Virus record (IMG/VR): IMGVR_UViG_3300027852_000031
Span: 102,380 to 166,379 of that record
DNA length: 64,000 nt
Source of the DNA: a virus
Direction: 5' to 3' (one strand)
Made by a program: the position numbers and the translations under genes. Below are positions 44,898 to 48,028 of this stretch, piece after piece (the stretch's first letter is position 1; each line of letters begins with the position of its first letter). The notes under the pieces were generated by a model, which saw only the letters and a list, made by a program, of their open reading frames with translations, searched no databases and was not told where the DNA came from.

Positions 44898-45557
44898 TTA
44901 GTTTTTGAATCCCATTTCATTAGTCAACAAATTAACATCAATCTCGTTATCCAGATCGTGTCCACGTAACCATTTGGTAAACTGGGCAACCATTAGCCCA
45001 GCCGCGATACTGGCACAATAGATAGTAGTTTTAGCTGTACAAGACCCATTATATGCCTCAGTTTCACTAAATAAAGTACTTTCATAGTGTGTACGAGATG
45101 CATCGTTATGTGATGTGAAAATTCGCATATATTCTGCACTCATCCTGCCATCTACAAATAGGTTTGCCCTATTTTTCACAGTATTAAATATATTGCGTCT
45201 AGTCTCAATACCGTCTACACAGCAGAATAAAACACCCCCAGTAAACTGAGTCGTATTGAATTTCCTACATGTAGTGGTAATGTCTACTGATGAATTTATA
45301 GATTTACATATTCGTTCTACAGCATCGACTTTCGACAATCCCATATCTTGCTCTAAGAACCCCTGTGGTGCCAGATTTTCCACTTCCACCCTGTCGAAAT
45401 CGATTAATTTCAGACGTGGCGTACCGATTGCCGCCAATTGAATGGTGACTTGTCTTCCTATTGCACCAGTCCCGACAATCGTTGCACTAATGGTCGCCAG
45501 CTTCTCTGGTGGAATTATGTCTCTTTGTCTGATATCTCTGTCTATTAGTTGGTTCAT
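44898..45557 (-). CDS. ThiF/E1-like ubiquitin-activating enzyme
   Basis: RQ, IVGTGAIG, IDFDRVEVENL..Q, SKV, CVD, DGRM, SCT. Confidence 0.9.
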   Translation of the reverse strand: MNQLIDRDIRQRDIIPPEKLATISATIVGTGAIGRQVTIQLAAIGTPRLKLIDFDRVEVENLAPQGFLEQDMGLSKVDAVERICKSINSSVDITTTCRKFNTTQFTGGVLFCCVDGIETRRNIFNTVKNRANLFVDGRMSAEYMRIFTSHNDASRTHYESTLFSETEAYNGSCTAKTTIYCASIAAGLMVAQFTKWLRGHDLDNEIDVNLLTNEMGFKN

Positions 45558-45558
45558 A

Positions 45559-46452
45559 TTAGCCTTCTTCCTCTGTTGGAACACATGCGGAATCTACTGT
45601 CGCATGACGATCTGCCCATTGTGGCATGAGTTCGGTTATACGTTTGTTTGGCGGGGGAGTACTCCTTTTCATTTCATTTCCGTTTTCAGTAAACCAATGT
45701 CCCGTATCCGGTTCATACAGATACCACTGTCCATTATCCTCGTCCCACCAGTAGACATCATTTTCTTCATCGCAGTAACAATCCATATTGTCTATTTCAT
45801 CACATACGTCTGGGATATCTACGTCTTCGACTATTGACCTAAACTCCCTATCCATGTCGAATGCTTCGTGCCCTCTGAACCCAACGTGCCGGAATTCTTC
45901 TATGCCGCTTACATGGAATTTTTCTTCAGATACGTTAGATTGATATTCTGCATTCCAAGCAGGTATGTCGGAACTAGCGAACGGCAGATTCCAGTCGATA
46001 CATACGTTCAATCTTTTTTCCATACCGGGGCCGACGTTGCTTTTCAGCCTGCAATAAGTCTTACCCCCGTCTGCTACTATCAGCATTATAGCCCAATTTG
46101 GGTGTGAGAATGCGTTTGTAAAATTTTCCTCATCCGTCCAAGATGGTTCCGGACTATCACCTGGATGAGTATGTGCTAGAATATTGGTTGCTTGCCATGG
46201 CGCCAACCCATCATCTGTCATTTTTTCTACGTATTCTACACAGCTTTCCGCATCTAAATCGAATGTTCCAGTAGTGCATTTTTGCTTTACTAAACAGAAA
46301 TCGGTTATCAGTAGTGGGTCTTCTGTTGCTGTAACACAATACCCAGCTACTTCTGTCGCTCCGATATCTCTCATATAGATTAATTTTGCCCATGCGTATG
46401 GTGTGAATCGTATTGTATCAGAAAATGTTGTTTTTGGTTTCATGAAATCCAT
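45559..46452 (-). CDS. JAB/MPN+ (JAMM) metallo-isopeptidase
   Basis: EVAG...HTHPGDSPEPSWTD = E...HxHx7Sx2D. Confidence 0.88.
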   Translation of the reverse strand: MDFMKPKTTFSDTIRFTPYAWAKLIYMRDIGATEVAGYCVTATEDPLLITDFCLVKQKCTTGTFDLDAESCVEYVEKMTDDGLAPWQATNILAHTHPGDSPEPSWTDEENFTNAFSHPNWAIMLIVADGGKTYCRLKSNVGPGMEKRLNVCIDWNLPFASSDIPAWNAEYQSNVSEEKFHVSGIEEFRHVGFRGHEAFDMDREFRSIVEDVDIPDVCDEIDNMDCYCDEENDVYWWDEDNGQWYLYEPDTGHWFTENGNEMKRSTPPPNKRITELMPQWADRHATVDSACVPTEEEG

Positions 46453-46453
46453 A

Positions 46454-47716
46454 TCATAGTTCCTTCGTTTTCTCGACAGTTTCTAGCAAACATTTATGTT
46501 TTTTGTCGCAGGGAGGGCAACTGTATGTTCCACAATGATTACATTCACAAGCACAATCTACACAGACACGTTCCCCGCAATCACTGCACGTCTCACATAG
46601 ACAATCTTTACAAACAGCTTCTCCGCAATATTTACACATTTCTTTACAATCGCTGCAAATACTATAGCCGCAACATTCACACTGCGTATCACAATTTATG
46701 CATCTATCAGAACCACAGCTGTTACATGTAGATAAGCATTCGCTGCATATTTGATCTGAGCAATCTTCGCATATTAAAGTGCACTCATTACACATAGGTG
46801 CATGACAACAGTTGCATGATTGAATACAATTATCGCAGTACCATTGTTCACAAGTATCGCACATTGCGCCATCGGCACAATTAGCGCATTGGATTGAGTC
46901 ACAACCGTCACATGACACCTGGTCGTACTCGTCTTTCCATTCTTCGCAGCAAACACAATAGAAGCTGCCTTCACGATCGGGGCTATACCAACTACTCAAG
47001 GGTGTGTGTGGTGACTCTGGATTATATGTCCTTAATATTTTTTCTACTAGGTCGAAATAATCTTCCAATCTTCCCTGATCTATAGCTAGACTTAGTGAGT
47101 ACTGACCATTTCCTTCACACAATTCTTCATCAGCGACGTGGGGATGGAAAAACCCATTATATGACTCTTCACCGGTTACAGCTATGATGCGCAAACTATT
47201 AATTGGTTCGATTATATCTATACTGATCCGGAAGTTGCCCAAATTTACATTTTCTTCGTCATCATCCAATATTATACTTTTGACGAGAATAGATAGCCGT
47301 CCATCTTTATACTTTATATCATCCCATCTTTTGGATATAACATCGATTTCTTCTATTAGTTGCCGCAACGACACCACAGTCGGCCTACTTGCGTTTGTTA
47401 GGTGGGCTATTACTAATTTTATATGGTCTATGGTTGTTGTGCACATATCTGGTATCATCTCTTGCGCAACACTATTATATACGGATTCGCTCAATATACC
47501 TTCGTGGTTCGTTTTATCCCACGGAGATCTTTGTATCCTTCTTGTTACCCCATAAAATAACTTATCAGTCCACACTCGTAATTGATTTATTTTATCATAA
47601 GCGGTATCTATAGCCCTATAAACTCTTTTGTTGTCGTATGACGAGCGGCTATCTAGCCTTGTGAGCATCCATGTTCTAAATTTATGGGCGACTCTGATCT
47701 TTATTTTTTTATTCAT
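46454..47716 (-). CDS. Prokaryotic E2-like conjugating enzyme with C-terminal CxxC-repeat tail
   Basis: FHPHVADEELCEG (HPN-like motif then Cys), YNPESP, 19 CxxC units. Confidence 0.75.
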   Translation of the reverse strand: MNKKIKIRVAHKFRTWMLTRLDSRSSYDNKRVYRAIDTAYDKINQLRVWTDKLFYGVTRRIQRSPWDKTNHEGILSESVYNSVAQEMIPDMCTTTIDHIKLVIAHLTNASRPTVVSLRQLIEEIDVISKRWDDIKYKDGRLSILVKSIILDDDEENVNLGNFRISIDIIEPINSLRIIAVTGEESYNGFFHPHVADEELCEGNGQYSLSLAIDQGRLEDYFDLVEKILRTYNPESPHTPLSSWYSPDREGSFYCVCCEEWKDEYDQVSCDGCDSIQCANCADGAMCDTCEQWYCDNCIQSCNCCHAPMCNECTLICEDCSDQICSECLSTCNSCGSDRCINCDTQCECCGYSICSDCKEMCKYCGEAVCKDCLCETCSDCGERVCVDCACECNHCGTYSCPPCDKKHKCLLETVEKTKEL

Positions 47717-47746
47717 ATTGTAACTCTGATGTCATAGAGGATTTTA

Positions 47747-47777
47747 TGGGTGGGGGGTGGTTGCCACCCCCCACCCA
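47747..47777. other. Perfect GC-rich hairpin between Ubl and E2 genes
   Basis: TGGGTGGGGGGTGG-TTG-CCACCCCCCACCCA, 14-bp stem; no U-tract on minus strand. Confidence 0.8.
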
Positions 47778-47794
47778 ATACAGCTATCAGAATA

Positions 47795-48028
47795 TTACGC
47801 ACCTTCGATCTTCTGAGGCGCAAGGGTTACCTTGTCTCCATCTCTCAGGACATAGTCTGTCTCAGCAACAAAACTCTCTCCATCAGATCGAACACGGATA
47901 GTGAAATCATCGAGATCACGATCCGGCAAGTAAAAATCCAAAAACGTACCAAGAGTAATACCAGGATTCACCGTCAATTGCTGCACACCACCGTCGCCAT
48001 CGTTCGTTACCAAAGTGACGTTCAACAT
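47795..48028 (-). CDS. Ubiquitin-like (ThiS/MoaD beta-grasp) protein, 77 aa, ending KIEGA
   Basis: AGGAG RBS before MLNVTLV; GITLGTF, IRVR, YVLRDGDKVTLAP pattern. Confidence 0.85.
   Translation of the reverse strand: MLNVTLVTNDGDGGVQQLTVNPGITLGTFLDFYLPDRDLDDFTIRVRSDGESFVAETDYVLRDGDKVTLAPQKIEGA

What the first reader, a model, noticed from the sequence alone, without database searches (positions are those of the whole stretch)
44898..48028. Complete phage-borne ubiquitin-like conjugation operon: Ubl - E2(+CxxC tail) - JAB - E1
Seen: four contiguous co-oriented genes, with 1-nt gaps between E2, JAB and E1. They encode a 77-aa beta-grasp protein ending in Gly-Ala, an HPH-x6-C E2-like enzyme, an exact JAMM motif (E...HxHx7Sx2D) and a ThiF/E1 with GxGxxG and a candidate catalytic Cys. 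Known: E1+E2+JAB+Ubl is the architecture of bacterial protein-conjugation systems such as Bil and CBASS Cap2/Cap3, which are host anti-phage defences; no thiamine or molybdopterin enzymes or CD-NTase lie nearby. Inference: here the virus carries the machinery, possibly to tag host or phage proteins, counter host defence, or exclude competing phages.
Basis: partly seen in the sequence, partly recalled or inferred. Interest (0 to 1): 0.95.

Follow-up and report, generated by a model that had tools for sequence, protein, structure and literature searches.

The report
Phage-borne ubiquitin-like tagging system
A complete 166-kb uncultured phage genome carries an intact ubiquitin-like protein-tagging pathway (tag, E1, E2, trimming peptidase) plus a Cdc48-like motor module; the same gene set sits on mobile islands of Planctomycetota and has no family model or description that I could find.

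Summary
On the minus strand at 44898-48028 lie four intact genes:
- a 77-aa ThiS-like tag ending Gly-Ala;
- a 420-aa protein whose core folds as a UBC/E2 domain, with an invariant HPH-x6-C motif and about 20 CxxC zinc knuckles;
- a JAMM peptidase;
- a 219-aa UBA5/MoeB-like E1.

The contig is viral: terminase, portal, CheckV completeness 100%.

Two things change the picture. First, the operon is half of a larger system. A Cdc48-like AAA ATPase, DUF3150, DUF1257 and DUF2997 lie 3-12 kb downstream in the window. In Planctomycetota chromosomes the same eight genes form one tight cluster, often in several copies, next to recombinases, CRISPR-Cas and other conflict genes. Second, it belongs to none of Bil, Bub, CBASS or PRTRC. 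The E2 family has at least 1,173 cluster representatives and no Pfam, NCBIfam, PHROG or PADLOC model.

Four related large phages (five loci) keep the operon, and their E1s form one clade. crAss-like, Flavobacterium and Xanthomonas phages carry more distant candidate E2/E1 sets, with a JAB gene in the first two.

The thioester cascade is inferred, and its targets and its benefit to the phage are unknown. This scan had already noted the same system on other DNA (e1-5743641, e1-4306001).

The parts
47795..48028 (-). Ubl: 77-aa ThiS/MoaD-type beta-grasp tag precursor. Gly76 is invariant and is followed by Ala77, a one-residue tail.
   Evidence: ORF; AGGAG lies 7 nt upstream of the ATG. In 19 homologues the motif P-x-K-[IV]-x-G is kept, Gly is invariant, and 1 to about 30 variable residues follow it. 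17 of 19 family members match Pfam ThiS, best E 1.2e-5; the window's own protein gives only ThiS-like at E 0.049. The fold was not modelled here.
47747..47777 (-). 14-bp G+C hairpin between the Ubl stop and the E2 start. Candidate attenuator or stabiliser that would give more Ubl than enzyme transcript.
   Evidence: Minimum free energy -39 kcal/mol for the 84-nt spacer, z = -5.6 against shuffles. Relative L007 has a 12-bp hairpin plus U6 at the same position.
46454..47716 (-). E2-like enzyme, 420 aa. Residues 3-108 form a long helical hairpin, about 113-245 a UBC core with HPH191-193 and Cys200, and about 250-400 an array of 20 CxxC zinc knuckles.
   Evidence: AF2 models: whole protein pLDDT 93.4, core pLDDT 93.9. 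VIA-align on the core: UBE2S Z 7.5-7.8, 116 aa, 3.5 A. Nearly all of the top 50 are E2, RWD or UEV chains; 49 representative chains reach Z>=5 in the wide search and 162 chains in the second look. The Foldseek PDB top hits are nearly all E2s. H191, P192, H193, C200 and G202 are invariant in 36 sequences. No Pfam, PHROG, PADLOC or NCBIfam hit. The tail gives weak RING/FYVE/p44/LIM-like matches only.
45559..46452 (-). JAB/JAMM metallopeptidase, 297 aa, with a phage-clade-specific acidic and aromatic C-terminal extension of about 100 aa.
   Evidence: Prok-JAB E 2.2e-4 and PADLOC JAB 2.2e-5. The family profile's best solved relatives are Caldiarchaeum Rpn11-like protein 6fjv (E 7e-4), Rpn11 and CSN5, and the alignment spans the catalytic Glu and HxH...S..D. 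Invariant H94, H96, S104 and D107.
44898..45557 (-). Minimal E1-like adenylating enzyme, 219 aa, with candidate catalytic Cys173.
   Evidence: Pfam ThiF 5e-24. Best solved sequence relatives are UBA5 (4.5e-9), MccB, PaaA and MoeB; the GSC173TAK stretch aligns with the Cys-containing EGVCAAS stretch of UBA5. GxGxxGR, D53, D55, K76, D115 and C173 are conserved in at least 95% of 26 sequences.
44643..44882 (-). 79-aa coiled-coil protein just downstream of E1. Conserved in related phages only; membership of the system is uncertain.
   Evidence: Homologues lie downstream of E1 in L007 and L009 (E 2e-10 to 5e-11), none in the bacterial loci.
40439..42013 (-). Classical-clade AAA+ ATPase, 524 aa, with one AAA domain closest to Cdc48/p97/VAT D2. 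Probable unfoldase partner.
   Evidence: Pfam AAA 6.7e-30 plus AAA_lid_3. PDB: Cdc48/p97 2e-57. phrog_8638 3e-121. Homologues lie 2-3 kb upstream of Ubl in 7 of the first 8 bacterial loci, and beside the operon in phage L012.
39425..40435 (-). DUF3150 protein, 336 aa, directly downstream of the AAA gene.
   Evidence: Pfam DUF3150 3.4e-22. Colinear with the bacterial 316-aa protein that follows the AAA gene (BLASTP 3e-5; merged by jackhmmer).
38039..38452 (-). DUF1257 protein, 137 aa.
   Evidence: Pfam DUF1257 3.4e-9. A DUF1257-like gene opens the bacterial cluster in 9 loci; that identification rests on one weak Pfam hit (E 0.0068 in L030), and the window's protein did not itself retrieve the bacterial ones.
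35442..35642 (-). DUF2997 protein, 66 aa.
   Evidence: Pfam DUF2997 4.2e-10. The window's protein retrieves the bacterial DUF2997 genes that sit between DUF1257 and AAA in 9 loci.

Best explanation
The four genes encode a working ubiquitin-like conjugation cascade, which the phage expresses during infection together with a Cdc48-like AAA+ module.

Proposed steps (all inferred, none assayed):
1. The JAMM peptidase removes Ala77 from the tag precursor and exposes Gly76.
2. The small E1, probably a homodimer like UBA5 or MoeB, adenylates Gly76 with ATP and takes it as a thioester on Cys173.
3. The tag passes to Cys200 of the E2, next to the HPH motif.
4. The E2 places the tag directly on lysines of target proteins. 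There is no separate E3; the E2's own helical hairpin and zinc-knuckle array would choose the targets.
5. The AAA+ ATPase, with DUF3150, DUF1257 and DUF2997, acts on the tagged proteins (unfolding or extraction), and the JAMM peptidase can also remove tags.

I think it most likely that this serves the phage's own infection cycle, by tagging host proteins or regulating phage proteins, rather than acting as a borrowed anti-phage defence.

Shown: the identity of the parts, their conservation and their linkage. Inferred: every chemical step, the coupling to the AAA module, and the purpose.
For: Identity of the parts:
- UBC fold, with HP[HN]-x6-8-C-x-G in 147 of 150 homologues.
- JAMM motif invariant.
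- ThiF/UBA5-like E1 with conserved ATP-site residues and Cys173.
- ThiS-type tag with an invariant Gly followed by variable tails.

Precedent for trimming: BilA of Type II Bil ends Gly97-Ala98 and is cut after the Gly by its JAB partner (PMC10557695).

Linkage to the AAA module:
- All eight genes are in the window.
- Nine bacterial loci have the full order DUF1257, DUF2997, AAA, DUF3150, Ubl, E2, JAB, E1.
- In 401 genomes of the phylum, 11 of 14 with a strong E2 match also have a strong DUF3150-like match; 17 genomes have the latter.
- The order differs between phage and bacteria, yet the association is kept.

Long-term retention in phages:
- Five related phage loci from contigs of 71-181 kb (two pairs are near-identical) keep the operon at 35-64% identity.
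- The four phage E1s form one side of a 99/99 branch.
- The genes are co-oriented within the replication and nucleotide-metabolism block.
Against: - No biochemistry exists. The cascade, the thioesters and lysine conjugation are all inferred from homology.
- Structural Z-scores for the E2 core are middling (7.5-7.8), and Foldseek E-values against the PDB are only 0.03-0.2.
- The Ubl fold was not modelled. Its own Pfam match is sub-threshold.
- Bacterial copies sit beside CRISPR-Cas, STAND, AbiEii-like, Fic and recombinase genes. This fits a defence or inter-element conflict role as well as, or better than, a pro-infection role.
Adjacency therefore need not mean a direct hand-over of substrates.
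- The host is unknown. The phage's G+C content (36-45%) is well below that of the planctomycete loci (52-62%).
Confidence: 0.5

Rival explanations
1. Same cascade, different purpose. It is a defence or exclusion system carried by the phage, as on the bacterial mobile islands. It would tag proteins of competing phages or other mobile elements, as Bil tags a phage tail protein, and so protect the infected or lysogenised cell for the resident phage.
For: - All characterised bacterial relatives in kind (Bil, CBASS Cap2/Cap3) act in anti-phage immunity, and Bub is predicted to (PMC11601596, PMC11601603).
- Bacterial copies lie next to cas7-cas5-cas4/1-cas2 (L029), type III RAMP genes (L011), STAND/NACHT, AbiEii-like AAA_21, HerA and ResIII genes, and serine or tyrosine recombinases.
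- They occur in several copies per genome.
- The phage encodes a tyrosine recombinase at 28545-29435, so it might be temperate.
Against: - The system is kept across a divergent clade of large phages and sits inside the replication block. It does not look like a variable moron at a genome edge.
- No PADLOC defence model other than generic E1 and JAB matches it.
- The flanking conflict genes are a tally of mixed neighbours, not a statistical enrichment test.
Confidence: 0.3
2. It is a sulfur-relay system, not a protein tagger. The E1 adenylates and then thiocarboxylates the ThiS-like carrier, which the JAB peptidase has trimmed, to make a thio-cofactor, a thionucleoside or a small molecule. This is the logic of CysO/Mec+ and of QbsE/QbsD/QbsC.
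For: - The closest Pfam and NCBIfam families are ThiS for the tag and ThiF for the E1; GenBank phage relatives of the E1 are annotated as thiamine biosynthesis proteins.
- Carriers with C-terminal tails removed by JAB peptidases exist in sulfur pathways (established knowledge; Iyer et al. 2006, PMC1779556).
Against: - A UBC-fold protein with an invariant Cys is an obligate member of the operon in every locus examined.
- The E1 has no rhodanese domain.
- No sulfurtransferase, ThiG/ThiH, MoaE or cysteine synthase was found among the neighbours scanned.
- The partner module is an AAA+ protein unfoldase.
Confidence: 0.07
3. The Ubl operon and the AAA/DUF3150/DUF1257/DUF2997 genes are two independent modules that travel together on the same mobile elements. 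The Ubl cascade works alone.
For: - Four of 20 bacterial loci (L033, L037, L041, L043) showed no AAA, DUF3150, DUF1257 or DUF2997 gene within the stretch fetched; L037 is cut by a contig end.
- Three E2-positive genomes lack a strong DUF3150 match, and six DUF3150-positive genomes lack a strong E2 match.
Against: - Co-occurrence is far above chance: 11 shared genomes out of 14 and 17 positives in 401 searched.
- The association survives a change of gene order between bacteria and phages.
- Only 4-5 first-look candidates were scored per genome, so some single-module genomes may be misses.
Confidence: 0.13

Closest known systems
Type II BilABCD (Ensifer aridi; bacterial ISG15-like anti-phage system; PMC10557695)
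   Same: Four separate genes in the order Ubl, E2, JAB, E1. No E3. The Ubl has a conserved Gly followed by a short tail (Gly-Ala in both), which in Bil is removed by the JAB partner. The E2 has a catalytic Cys.
   Different: BilD is a two-domain E1 (IAD-AAD plus a Cys-bearing insertion) with a zinc site; this E1 is one 219-aa adenylation domain. No BilB model matches this E2, which adds a helical hairpin and about 20 CxxC knuckles. The PADLOC BilD hit is only 6e-5 over the adenylation core. This system is linked to an AAA+ module and sits on a phage.
UBA5-UFC1-UFM1 (eukaryotic UFMylation)
   Same: UBA5 is the best solved sequence relative of the E1 (4.5e-9). It is likewise a minimal E1 whose catalytic Cys lies within the adenylation domain. 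From general knowledge, UFM1 is also made as a precursor that is trimmed to a C-terminal Gly.
   Different: No UFC1-type E2 and no UFL1-type E3. The tag is ThiS-like. The trimming enzyme is a JAMM metallopeptidase, not a Cys protease.
Bub operons (types I and II; formerly 6E/DUF6527; PMC11601596)
   Same: A bacterial Ubl, E2, E1 and peptidase set. The BubB E2 is a structural match of the core (9eav_D, Z 5.3).
   Different: Bub works through oxyesters, uses fused proteins (Ubl-E2, JAB-E1 or E2-E1) and has a DUF6527 serine protease. Here the genes are separate and the Cys residues are conserved.
Type II CBASS Cap2/Cap3
   Same: E1, E2 and JAB chemistry. PADLOC E1-E2 models match the E1 core (2.5e-12) and JAB models match the peptidase.
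   Different: Cap2 is an E2-E1 fusion that conjugates a CD-NTase. Here there is a free Ubl, separate enzymes and no CD-NTase.
Operon group 6d of Iyer, Burroughs and Aravind 2006 (the link to the PRTRC cassette is from recall)
   Same: Standalone small Ubl with a C-terminal Gly, plus E2-like, JAB and E1-like genes on mobile elements.
   Different: The 6d E2 lacks the upstream His, its JAB has a JAB-N domain, and an alpha-helical enzyme-like gene is present. Here HPH is canonical. NCBIfam PRTRC_ThiF scores 30 bits against a cut-off of 145, and no other PRTRC model hits.
Eukaryotic and Caldiarchaeum ubiquitin systems with Rpn11 and Cdc48/proteasomal AAA+ ATPases
   Same: Among solved structures, the core is closest to canonical eukaryotic E2s such as UBE2S, Ube2K and Ubc13. 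The JAB profile is closest to Rpn11-type peptidases, and the AAA domain to Cdc48/p97 D2. The combination of tag, deconjugating JAMM peptidase and AAA+ unfoldase is the logic of ubiquitin-directed unfolding.
   Different: No proteasome genes, no RING E3 and no ubiquitin-family tag. All similarities are at fold or family level, and the coupling is untested.
Lambda and T1 tail assembly proteins TAPI and TAPK
   Same: The previously described phage-encoded pair of a Ubl and a JAB peptidase (PMC1779556).
   Different: That pair has no E1 or E2 and sits in the tail module. Here a full cascade lies in the replication block.

Membership tests
UBC/E2 superfamily | alpha/beta UBC fold: N-terminal helix, four-strand meander, then helices | tested here: met
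   Core model pLDDT 93.9. UBE2S Z 7.5-7.8, 116 aa, 3.5 A. Nearly all top-50 chains are E2, RWD or UEV; the Foldseek top hits are nearly all E2s.
UBC/E2 superfamily | Catalytic Cys a few residues after an HPN-type motif | tested here: met
   HPH191-193, then six residues, then C200. HP[HN]-x6-8-C-x-G is present in 147 of 150 homologues. The residue-level structural superposition was not inspected.
UBC/E2 superfamily | Match to a curated sequence model (Pfam UQ_con or Prok-E2_A to E) | tested here: not met
   No Pfam family for the window protein or for 36 homologues. No NCBIfam, PHROG or PADLOC model either.
JAMM/MPN+ peptidases | Motif E...HxHx7Sx2D | tested here: met
   H94, H96, S104 and D107 are invariant in 16 sequences, and the Glu is kept in the 14 rows that cover it. 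The profile hits only Rpn11, CSN5 and Prp8 MPN chains. Pfam Prok-JAB scores 21.5 bits, below the cut-off of 25.
ThiF/E1 superfamily | Rossmann-type adenylation domain above the curated threshold, with a GxGxxG ATP site | tested here: met
   PF00899 scores 85.2 bits against a cut-off of 28.1. GxGxxGR, D53, D55, K76 and D115 are conserved.
ThiF/E1 superfamily | Catalytic Cys that forms the E1~Ubl thioester | tested here: inconclusive
   C173 is conserved in at least 95% of 26 sequences and aligns with the Cys of the EGVCAAS stretch of UBA5, but only in a weak second HMMER segment. That this UBA5 Cys is the catalytic residue is from recall. No assay was done.
ThiS/MoaD/ubiquitin beta-grasp tags | Beta-grasp fold with a C-terminal Gly | tested here: inconclusive
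   17 of 19 family members match Pfam ThiS (best 1.2e-5), and other beta-grasp families also appear. The window's own best match is 0.049. Gly76 is invariant.
BilABCD (types I and II) | E1 with IAD-AAD-CYS architecture (BilD) | tested here: not met
   The E1 is 219 aa with a single adenylation domain. The PADLOC BilD match is 6.3e-5 over profile positions 196-317 only.
BilABCD (types I and II) | E2 of the BilB family | tested here: not met
   No PADLOC family at E<=0.1 for the E2.
BilABCD (types I and II) | Ubl precursor trimmed after a conserved Gly by the JAB partner | not testable with these tools
   The sequence fits: invariant Gly plus tails of 1-30 residues. Cleavage needs an assay.
Bub (types I and II) | Fused Ubl-E2, JAB-E1 or E2-E1 proteins; Ser rather than Cys catalysis; DUF6527 protease | tested here: not met
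   The genes are separate and the Cys residues conserved. No DUF6527 was found among the proteins scanned.
Type II CBASS (Cap2/Cap3) | E2-E1 fusion next to a CD-NTase | tested here: not met
   E2 and E1 are separate genes. No CD-NTase was found among the scanned neighbours.
PRTRC / operon group 6d | PRTRC-specific ThiF and partner families; E2 without the upstream His; JAB-N domain | tested here: not met
   TIGR03736 scores 30.2 bits against a cut-off of 144.75, and no other PRTRC model hits. HPH is present. The JAB N-terminus aligns within the MPN core of Rpn11-like 6fjv.

The most novel reading that the evidence does not exclude
The phage runs a prokaryotic counterpart of the ubiquitin-Cdc48 pathway. 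It tags chosen host proteins, for example defence or nucleoid proteins, with its own Ubl through an E2 that carries a built-in zinc-finger substrate adaptor. The Cdc48-like AAA+ complex, with DUF3150, DUF1257 and DUF2997 as cofactors, then unfolds or extracts them, and an Rpn11-like JAMM peptidase recycles the tag. This would be the first viral, E3-less 'tag and unfold' system in prokaryotes. More distant candidate E2/E1 sets, with a JAB gene in some, occur in crAss-like, Flavobacterium and Xanthomonas phages.
Probability: 0.2. Interest if true: 0.95.

Novelty: new variant of a known kind. Interest (0 to 1): 0.78.

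Why it matters
Ubiquitin-like conjugation in bacteria is so far known as host immunity against phages (Bil, CBASS, probably Bub). Here a complete cascade is a stable part of a clade of large phages. It is genetically tied to a Cdc48-like unfoldase module, an association I did not find described.

The E2 family is large: at least 1,173 representatives at 50% identity, and an Atlas cluster of 2,546 members, mostly Planctomycetota. 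It has no curated model, so it is invisible to standard annotation.

If the cascade is active, three questions become testable:
- What a virus of bacteria gains from tagging proteins.
- Whether a tag-plus-unfoldase logic existed outside archaea and eukaryotes.
- How an E2 picks substrates without an E3.

Distant structural relatives sit next to ThiF-like genes in cultured phages: a crAss-like lineage, Flavobacterium FpV4 and Xanthomonas PhiXhv-12. There the E1 is annotated 'thiamine biosynthesis protein'. These phages offer tractable models.

Tried and rejected
- Word-indexed homologue search with E2 residues 1-260 found only the protein itself. The exhaustive HMMER search was needed.
- The whole-protein fold search by VIA-align was swamped by the N-terminal helical hairpin and was uninformative. 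It was solved by modelling the core alone.
- The profile of the E2 family against PDB sequences gave only weak zinc-finger and designed coiled-coil hits, and no E2.
- blastn of the operon and tblastn of the E2 against 50,697 GenBank phage records: no match.
- The search for related loci with the E2 in viral contigs and with a bacterial E2 in genome contigs: nothing. A degenerate DNA pattern for HPHV-x4-LCEGDG found nothing in genome contigs, although genome search finds the family. I treat that as a tool limitation, not as absence.
- JAB single sequence against the PDB: no hit. The profile was needed.
- The Ubl profile against the PDB gave only marginal MoaD and unrelated hits.
- HMMs of my E2, JAB and Ubl families do not detect the crAss-like, FpV4 or Xanthomonas proteins next to their ThiF genes. 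hhalign gives E 0.0018 for Xanthomonas and 0.16 for crAss. That link rests on motifs and on the BFVD fold search and is a lead, not a result.
- Membership of Bil, Bub, CBASS and PRTRC/6d was considered and rejected (see Membership tests).
- Literature searches for DUF3150, DUF1257 or DUF2997 with Ubl genes, for a phage-encoded E1/E2/JAB set, and for crAss-like with ThiF found no description. Subscription papers are not searchable here, notably Burroughs et al. 2011 on prokaryotic RING and treble-clef domains, so prior description cannot be excluded.

Full report
**1. What is there**

The window is the last 64 kb of a single 166,379-bp virus record. CheckV puts its completeness at 100%, and its two ends share 17 nt.

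The record is a tailed-phage genome:
- A large terminase interrupted by an intein-like endonuclease, and a portal gene, lie at 26.9-32.5 kb of the record.
- The window itself holds a family-A-type DNA polymerase, a DnaB helicase and a UvsX-like recombinase (both with intein-like inserts), a primase, a ribonucleotide reductase, an exonuclease and six tRNA genes.
- Nearly all genes are on the minus strand.
- The search tool also treats the record as a virus.

The four ORFs of the finding are real and intact. They read Ubl (47795-48028), E2-like (46454-47716), JAB (45559-46452) and E1 (44898-45557) on the minus strand. One-nucleotide gaps separate E2 from JAB and JAB from E1. A strong Shine-Dalgarno (AGGAG) sits 7 nt before the Ubl start.

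**2. Identity of each part**

E1:
- Pfam ThiF scores 85 bits against a cut-off of 28.
- The closest solved sequences are UBA5 (4.5e-9), then MccB, PaaA and MoeB.
- In 26 homologues, GxGxxGR (29-35), D53, D55, K76, D115 and C173 are conserved in at least 95%.
- C173 lies in a GSCTAK stretch that HMMER aligns with the Cys-bearing EGVCAAS stretch of UBA5. From recall, that is UBA5's catalytic Cys.
- The protein is a bare adenylation domain, with no rhodanese, no second pseudo-domain and no C-terminal zinc motif.

JAB:
- The single sequence is sub-threshold for Prok-JAB (21.5 bits against 25).
- The motif is exact: H94, H96, S104 and D107 are invariant in 16 homologues, and the catalytic Glu is present wherever the N-terminus is covered.
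- A profile of the family hits only MPN+ peptidases. The best is the Caldiarchaeum Rpn11-like protein 6fjv (7e-4), followed by Rpn11 and CSN5.
- The four phage versions carry an extra acidic and aromatic tail of about 100 residues that the bacterial versions lack.

E2:
- No library matches it: Pfam, NCBIfam, PHROGs and PADLOC are all blank, and 36 homologues also have no Pfam family.
- An exhaustive HMMER search found 1,173 cluster representatives at E<=0.001.
- With 150 of them as alignment, AlphaFold2 gave a confident model (pLDDT 93.4). It has three parts: a long helical hairpin (residues 3-108), an alpha/beta core (about 113-245) and a rod of beta-hairpin zinc knuckles.
- Modelled alone, the core has pLDDT 93.9. 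It aligns with UBE2S at Z 7.5-7.8 (116 residues, 3.5 A).
- Nearly every one of the top 50 chains in both VIA-align runs is an E2, an RWD domain or a UEV domain. They include bacterial BubB (Z 5.3) and a CBASS E2 (Z 5.0). Foldseek's list is likewise nearly all E2s, although its E-values are weak at 0.03-0.2.
- The absolute Z is middling. The case rests on three things together: the uniformity of the hits, the coverage of the whole domain, and the motif HPH191-193, six residues, C200, x, G202. That motif is invariant in 36 sequences and present as HP[HN]-x6-8-C-x-G in 147 of 150. This is the spacing of the HPN...Cys active site of canonical E2s.
- The tail has 20 CxxC units in the window's protein. 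The median is 20 in the phage-like top hits and 10 in the rest, with a range of 0-27. It gives only weak RING, FYVE, p44 and LIM-type matches.

Ubl:
- The window's protein alone is weak (ThiS-like, E 0.049).
- Of 19 family members, 17 match Pfam ThiS (best 1.2e-5), and others match further beta-grasp families.
- The alignment shows an invariant Gly in P-x-K-[IV]-x-G. An Ala follows it in about 90% of sequences, and then come 0 to about 30 unconserved residues.
- This is the pattern of a precursor cut after the Gly. Type II BilA ends Gly97-Ala98 and is cut there by its JAB partner (PMC10557695).

**3. The operon is half of a larger system**

An earlier first-reader note on this window pointed to an AAA/DUF module downstream, and I tested it.

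In the window, Pfam confirms:
- AAA at 40439-42013;
- DUF3150 at 39425-40435 (3.4e-22);
- DUF1257 at 38039-38452 (3.4e-9);
- DUF2997 at 35442-35642 (4.2e-10).

The AAA domain is closest to Cdc48/p97/VAT D2 (2e-57).

One E2 homologue comes from a Planctomycetaceae MAG. I searched 401 genomes of that phylum:
- 40 had a match and 14 had strong full-length matches, often 2-4 per genome.
- I fetched 20 chromosomal loci and labelled their ORFs by jackhmmer. All 20 keep Ubl, E2, JAB and E1 in that order.
- Nine loci show the full order DUF1257, DUF2997, (an optional 332-aa gene), AAA, (an optional 105-aa gene), a DUF3150-like 316-aa gene, about 1 kb of spacer, then Ubl, E2, JAB and E1.
- Several further loci are cut by contig ends.
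- The bacterial 316-aa protein is colinear with the window's DUF3150 protein.
- At genome level, 11 of the 14 genomes with a strong E2 match are among the 17 with a strong DUF3150-like match.

In phages the order is different: the Ubl operon comes first, and AAA plus DUF3150 lie about 3 kb downstream, as also seen in the 168-kb phage L012/L013. In this window the module is also broken up by HNH genes. The association therefore survives rearrangement, which argues for a functional link. It does not prove one.

**4. Where the family lives**

Phages:
- Three IMG/VR contigs (71-181 kb; two are near-identical at this locus) and two 168-kb contigs that are near-identical to each other keep the operon at 35-64% identity.
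- The four phage E1s sit together on one side of a 99/99-supported branch, against 22 bacterial and metagenomic ones. The tree is unrooted, so direction cannot be inferred.

Bacteria:
- The Atlas cluster nearest in structure has 2,546 members, mostly Planctomycetota.
- Flanking genes of the 20 loci include four serine recombinases, two tyrosine integrases, and two each of Fic, AbiEii-like AAA_21, STAND/NACHT, HerA and ResIII genes, plus IS elements.
- By my reading of the ORFs (no family scan), one locus abuts cas7-cas5-cas4/1-cas2 (L029). Another abuts type III RAMP genes (L011). A third lies between a tRNA-integrase pair and an IS66 element (L026).
- This is a mobile, conflict-rich setting. 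I ran no enrichment statistics.

More distant phage relatives:
- tblastn with the E1 finds ThiF-like genes of about 30% identity in crAss-like phages, Flavobacterium phages (FpV4 group) and 227-kb Xanthomonas and Erwinia phages. They are annotated 'thiamine biosynthesis protein'.
- In cr111_1 and FpV4 the two upstream genes are a ~415-aa protein with an exact JAMM motif and a ~420-aa protein with an HSH...C-x-G motif.
- In Xanthomonas phage PhiXhv-12 the upstream 892-aa protein has HPHM...LCLG and CxxC arrays (hhalign E 0.0018).
- The BFVD fold search with my E2 core returns marine phage proteins (E 1e-5 to 7e-4), crAss-like proteins (E 1.5e-3; cr128_1 at probability 0.99) and, lower down, giant-virus E2s.
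- I regard this as a good lead that E2-like/E1 sets, with a JAB gene in some, are widespread in phages. It is not established.

**5. How it most likely works**

The chain I propose is this: JAB trims Ala77; E1 adenylates Gly76 and forms a thioester on C173; the tag moves to E2 C200; the E2 ligates it directly to lysine.
- There is no E3 gene. The E2's own hairpin and zinc array would supply target choice, as Bil E2s are proposed to do (PMC11601596).
- The AAA module would then process the tagged proteins, and the JAB peptidase would also deconjugate.
- A very stable hairpin sits between the Ubl stop and the E2 start (-39 kcal/mol, z -5.6). A hairpin plus U6 sits at the same place in L007. This suggests more tag than enzyme transcript.
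- Every chemical step is inference from family knowledge.

On purpose, I put a phage-serving role at about 0.5, because the system is retained long term within the replication block of a phage clade. I put a defence or exclusion role at 0.3, from the bacterial neighbourhoods and the precedents. The remaining rivals are independence of the AAA module (0.13) and a sulfur relay (0.07). The sulfur reading is disfavoured by the obligate E2 with its invariant Cys and by the absence of sulfur-transfer genes.

**6. Comparison with what is known, and novelty**

It works like Type II Bil: four separate genes, a Gly-Ala precursor and no E3. It fails the membership tests for Bil (E1 architecture, BilB family), Bub (fusions, oxyester chemistry), CBASS (E2-E1 fusion, CD-NTase) and PRTRC/6d (NCBIfam scores, canonical His, no JAB-N).

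Among solved structures its closest relatives are eukaryote-type ones: canonical E2s for the core, UBA5 for the E1, Rpn11-like peptidases for the JAB, and Cdc48 for the AAA domain.

I found no description of this family or of its link to the AAA/DUF module in the searchable literature. Subscription papers could not be searched.

This scan had already noted the same system on other DNA: a 168-kb phage (e1-5743641), a Planctomycetota mobile element (e1-4306001) and a related acidobacterial set (e1-4344619). My results were obtained independently and agree with those notes.

I class it as a new variant of a known kind, a prokaryotic Ubl-conjugation system. Its distinctive traits are carriage by a phage, an E2 fused to a zinc array, a minimal E1 and a linked unfoldase module.

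Noticed in passing
window 47747-47777 (-); L007 about 3371-3402: A very stable G+C hairpin lies right after the Ubl stop codon (14 bp here; 12 bp plus U6 in a related phage). It is a possible attenuator that sets the ratio of tag to enzyme transcripts.
   Followed up: partly
window 44014-44436 (-) and 34225-34593 (-): Two paralogous Cys-rich proteins, the first 140 aa (jackhmmer 4e-94 and 2e-72). They bracket the stretch that holds the AAA, DUF3150, DUF1257 and DUF2997 genes. No homologue was seen in the bacterial loci.
   Followed up: no
window 45559-45870 (-), C-terminal third of the JAB protein: Phage-clade-specific extension of about 100 aa, rich in Asp, Glu, Trp and Tyr (motifs like DCYxD and DGDVxYW). 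It is absent from all bacterial JABs aligned.
   Followed up: partly
L012 10123-10839 (+): In the 168-kb relative, an extra 238-aa protein lies between JAB and E1 and matches the E2 query (presumably its Cys-rich tail; the aligned region was not inspected). The zinc-knuckle array may therefore also exist as a separate gene.
   Followed up: no
L046 1433-4663; L047 1536-4606; L048 1247-4621: crAss-like phage cr111_1, Flavobacterium phage FpV4 and Xanthomonas phage PhiXhv-12 have a ThiF-like gene annotated 'thiamine biosynthesis protein'. In the first two it is preceded by a JAMM-motif protein and a ~420-aa protein with an HSH...C-x-G motif. In the Xanthomonas phage it is preceded by an 892-aa protein with HPHM...LCLG and CxxC arrays. 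These are likely distant E2/(JAB)/E1 modules in cultured phages.
   Followed up: partly
window 28545-29435 (-): Tyrosine recombinase (Pfam Phage_integrase, 141 bits). The phage may be temperate, or may use it to resolve genome dimers.
   Followed up: no
window 10016-12718, 14586-16925 (-); genome 26943-30299 (+): The DnaB helicase, the UvsX-like recombinase and the large terminase each carry an insert that matches phrog_9666 and endonuclease families. These are probable inteins.
   Followed up: no
window 36480-37853 (-) and 38453-39115 (-): An HNH-like N-terminus fused to an IMPDH/GMP-reductase-like dehydrogenase, and a separate HNH gene. Both are inserted between genes of the AAA/DUF module.
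   Followed up: no
window 60597-60677 (-): ARAGORN calls a tRNA of undetermined type with a four-base anticodon (cgcg) in an enlarged loop.
   Followed up: no
window 50077-50547 (-) and 50658-51359 (-): A phosphoribosyltransferase-domain protein and a metallophosphoesterase lie 2-3 kb upstream of the Ubl gene. No link to the system was seen in other loci.
   Followed up: no
L034 17718-18026 (-): One planctomycete locus has a second Ubl gene about 6 kb beyond the first operon, and a truncated extra DUF1257-DUF2997-AAA stub upstream. These are signs of tandem or nested copies.
   Followed up: no
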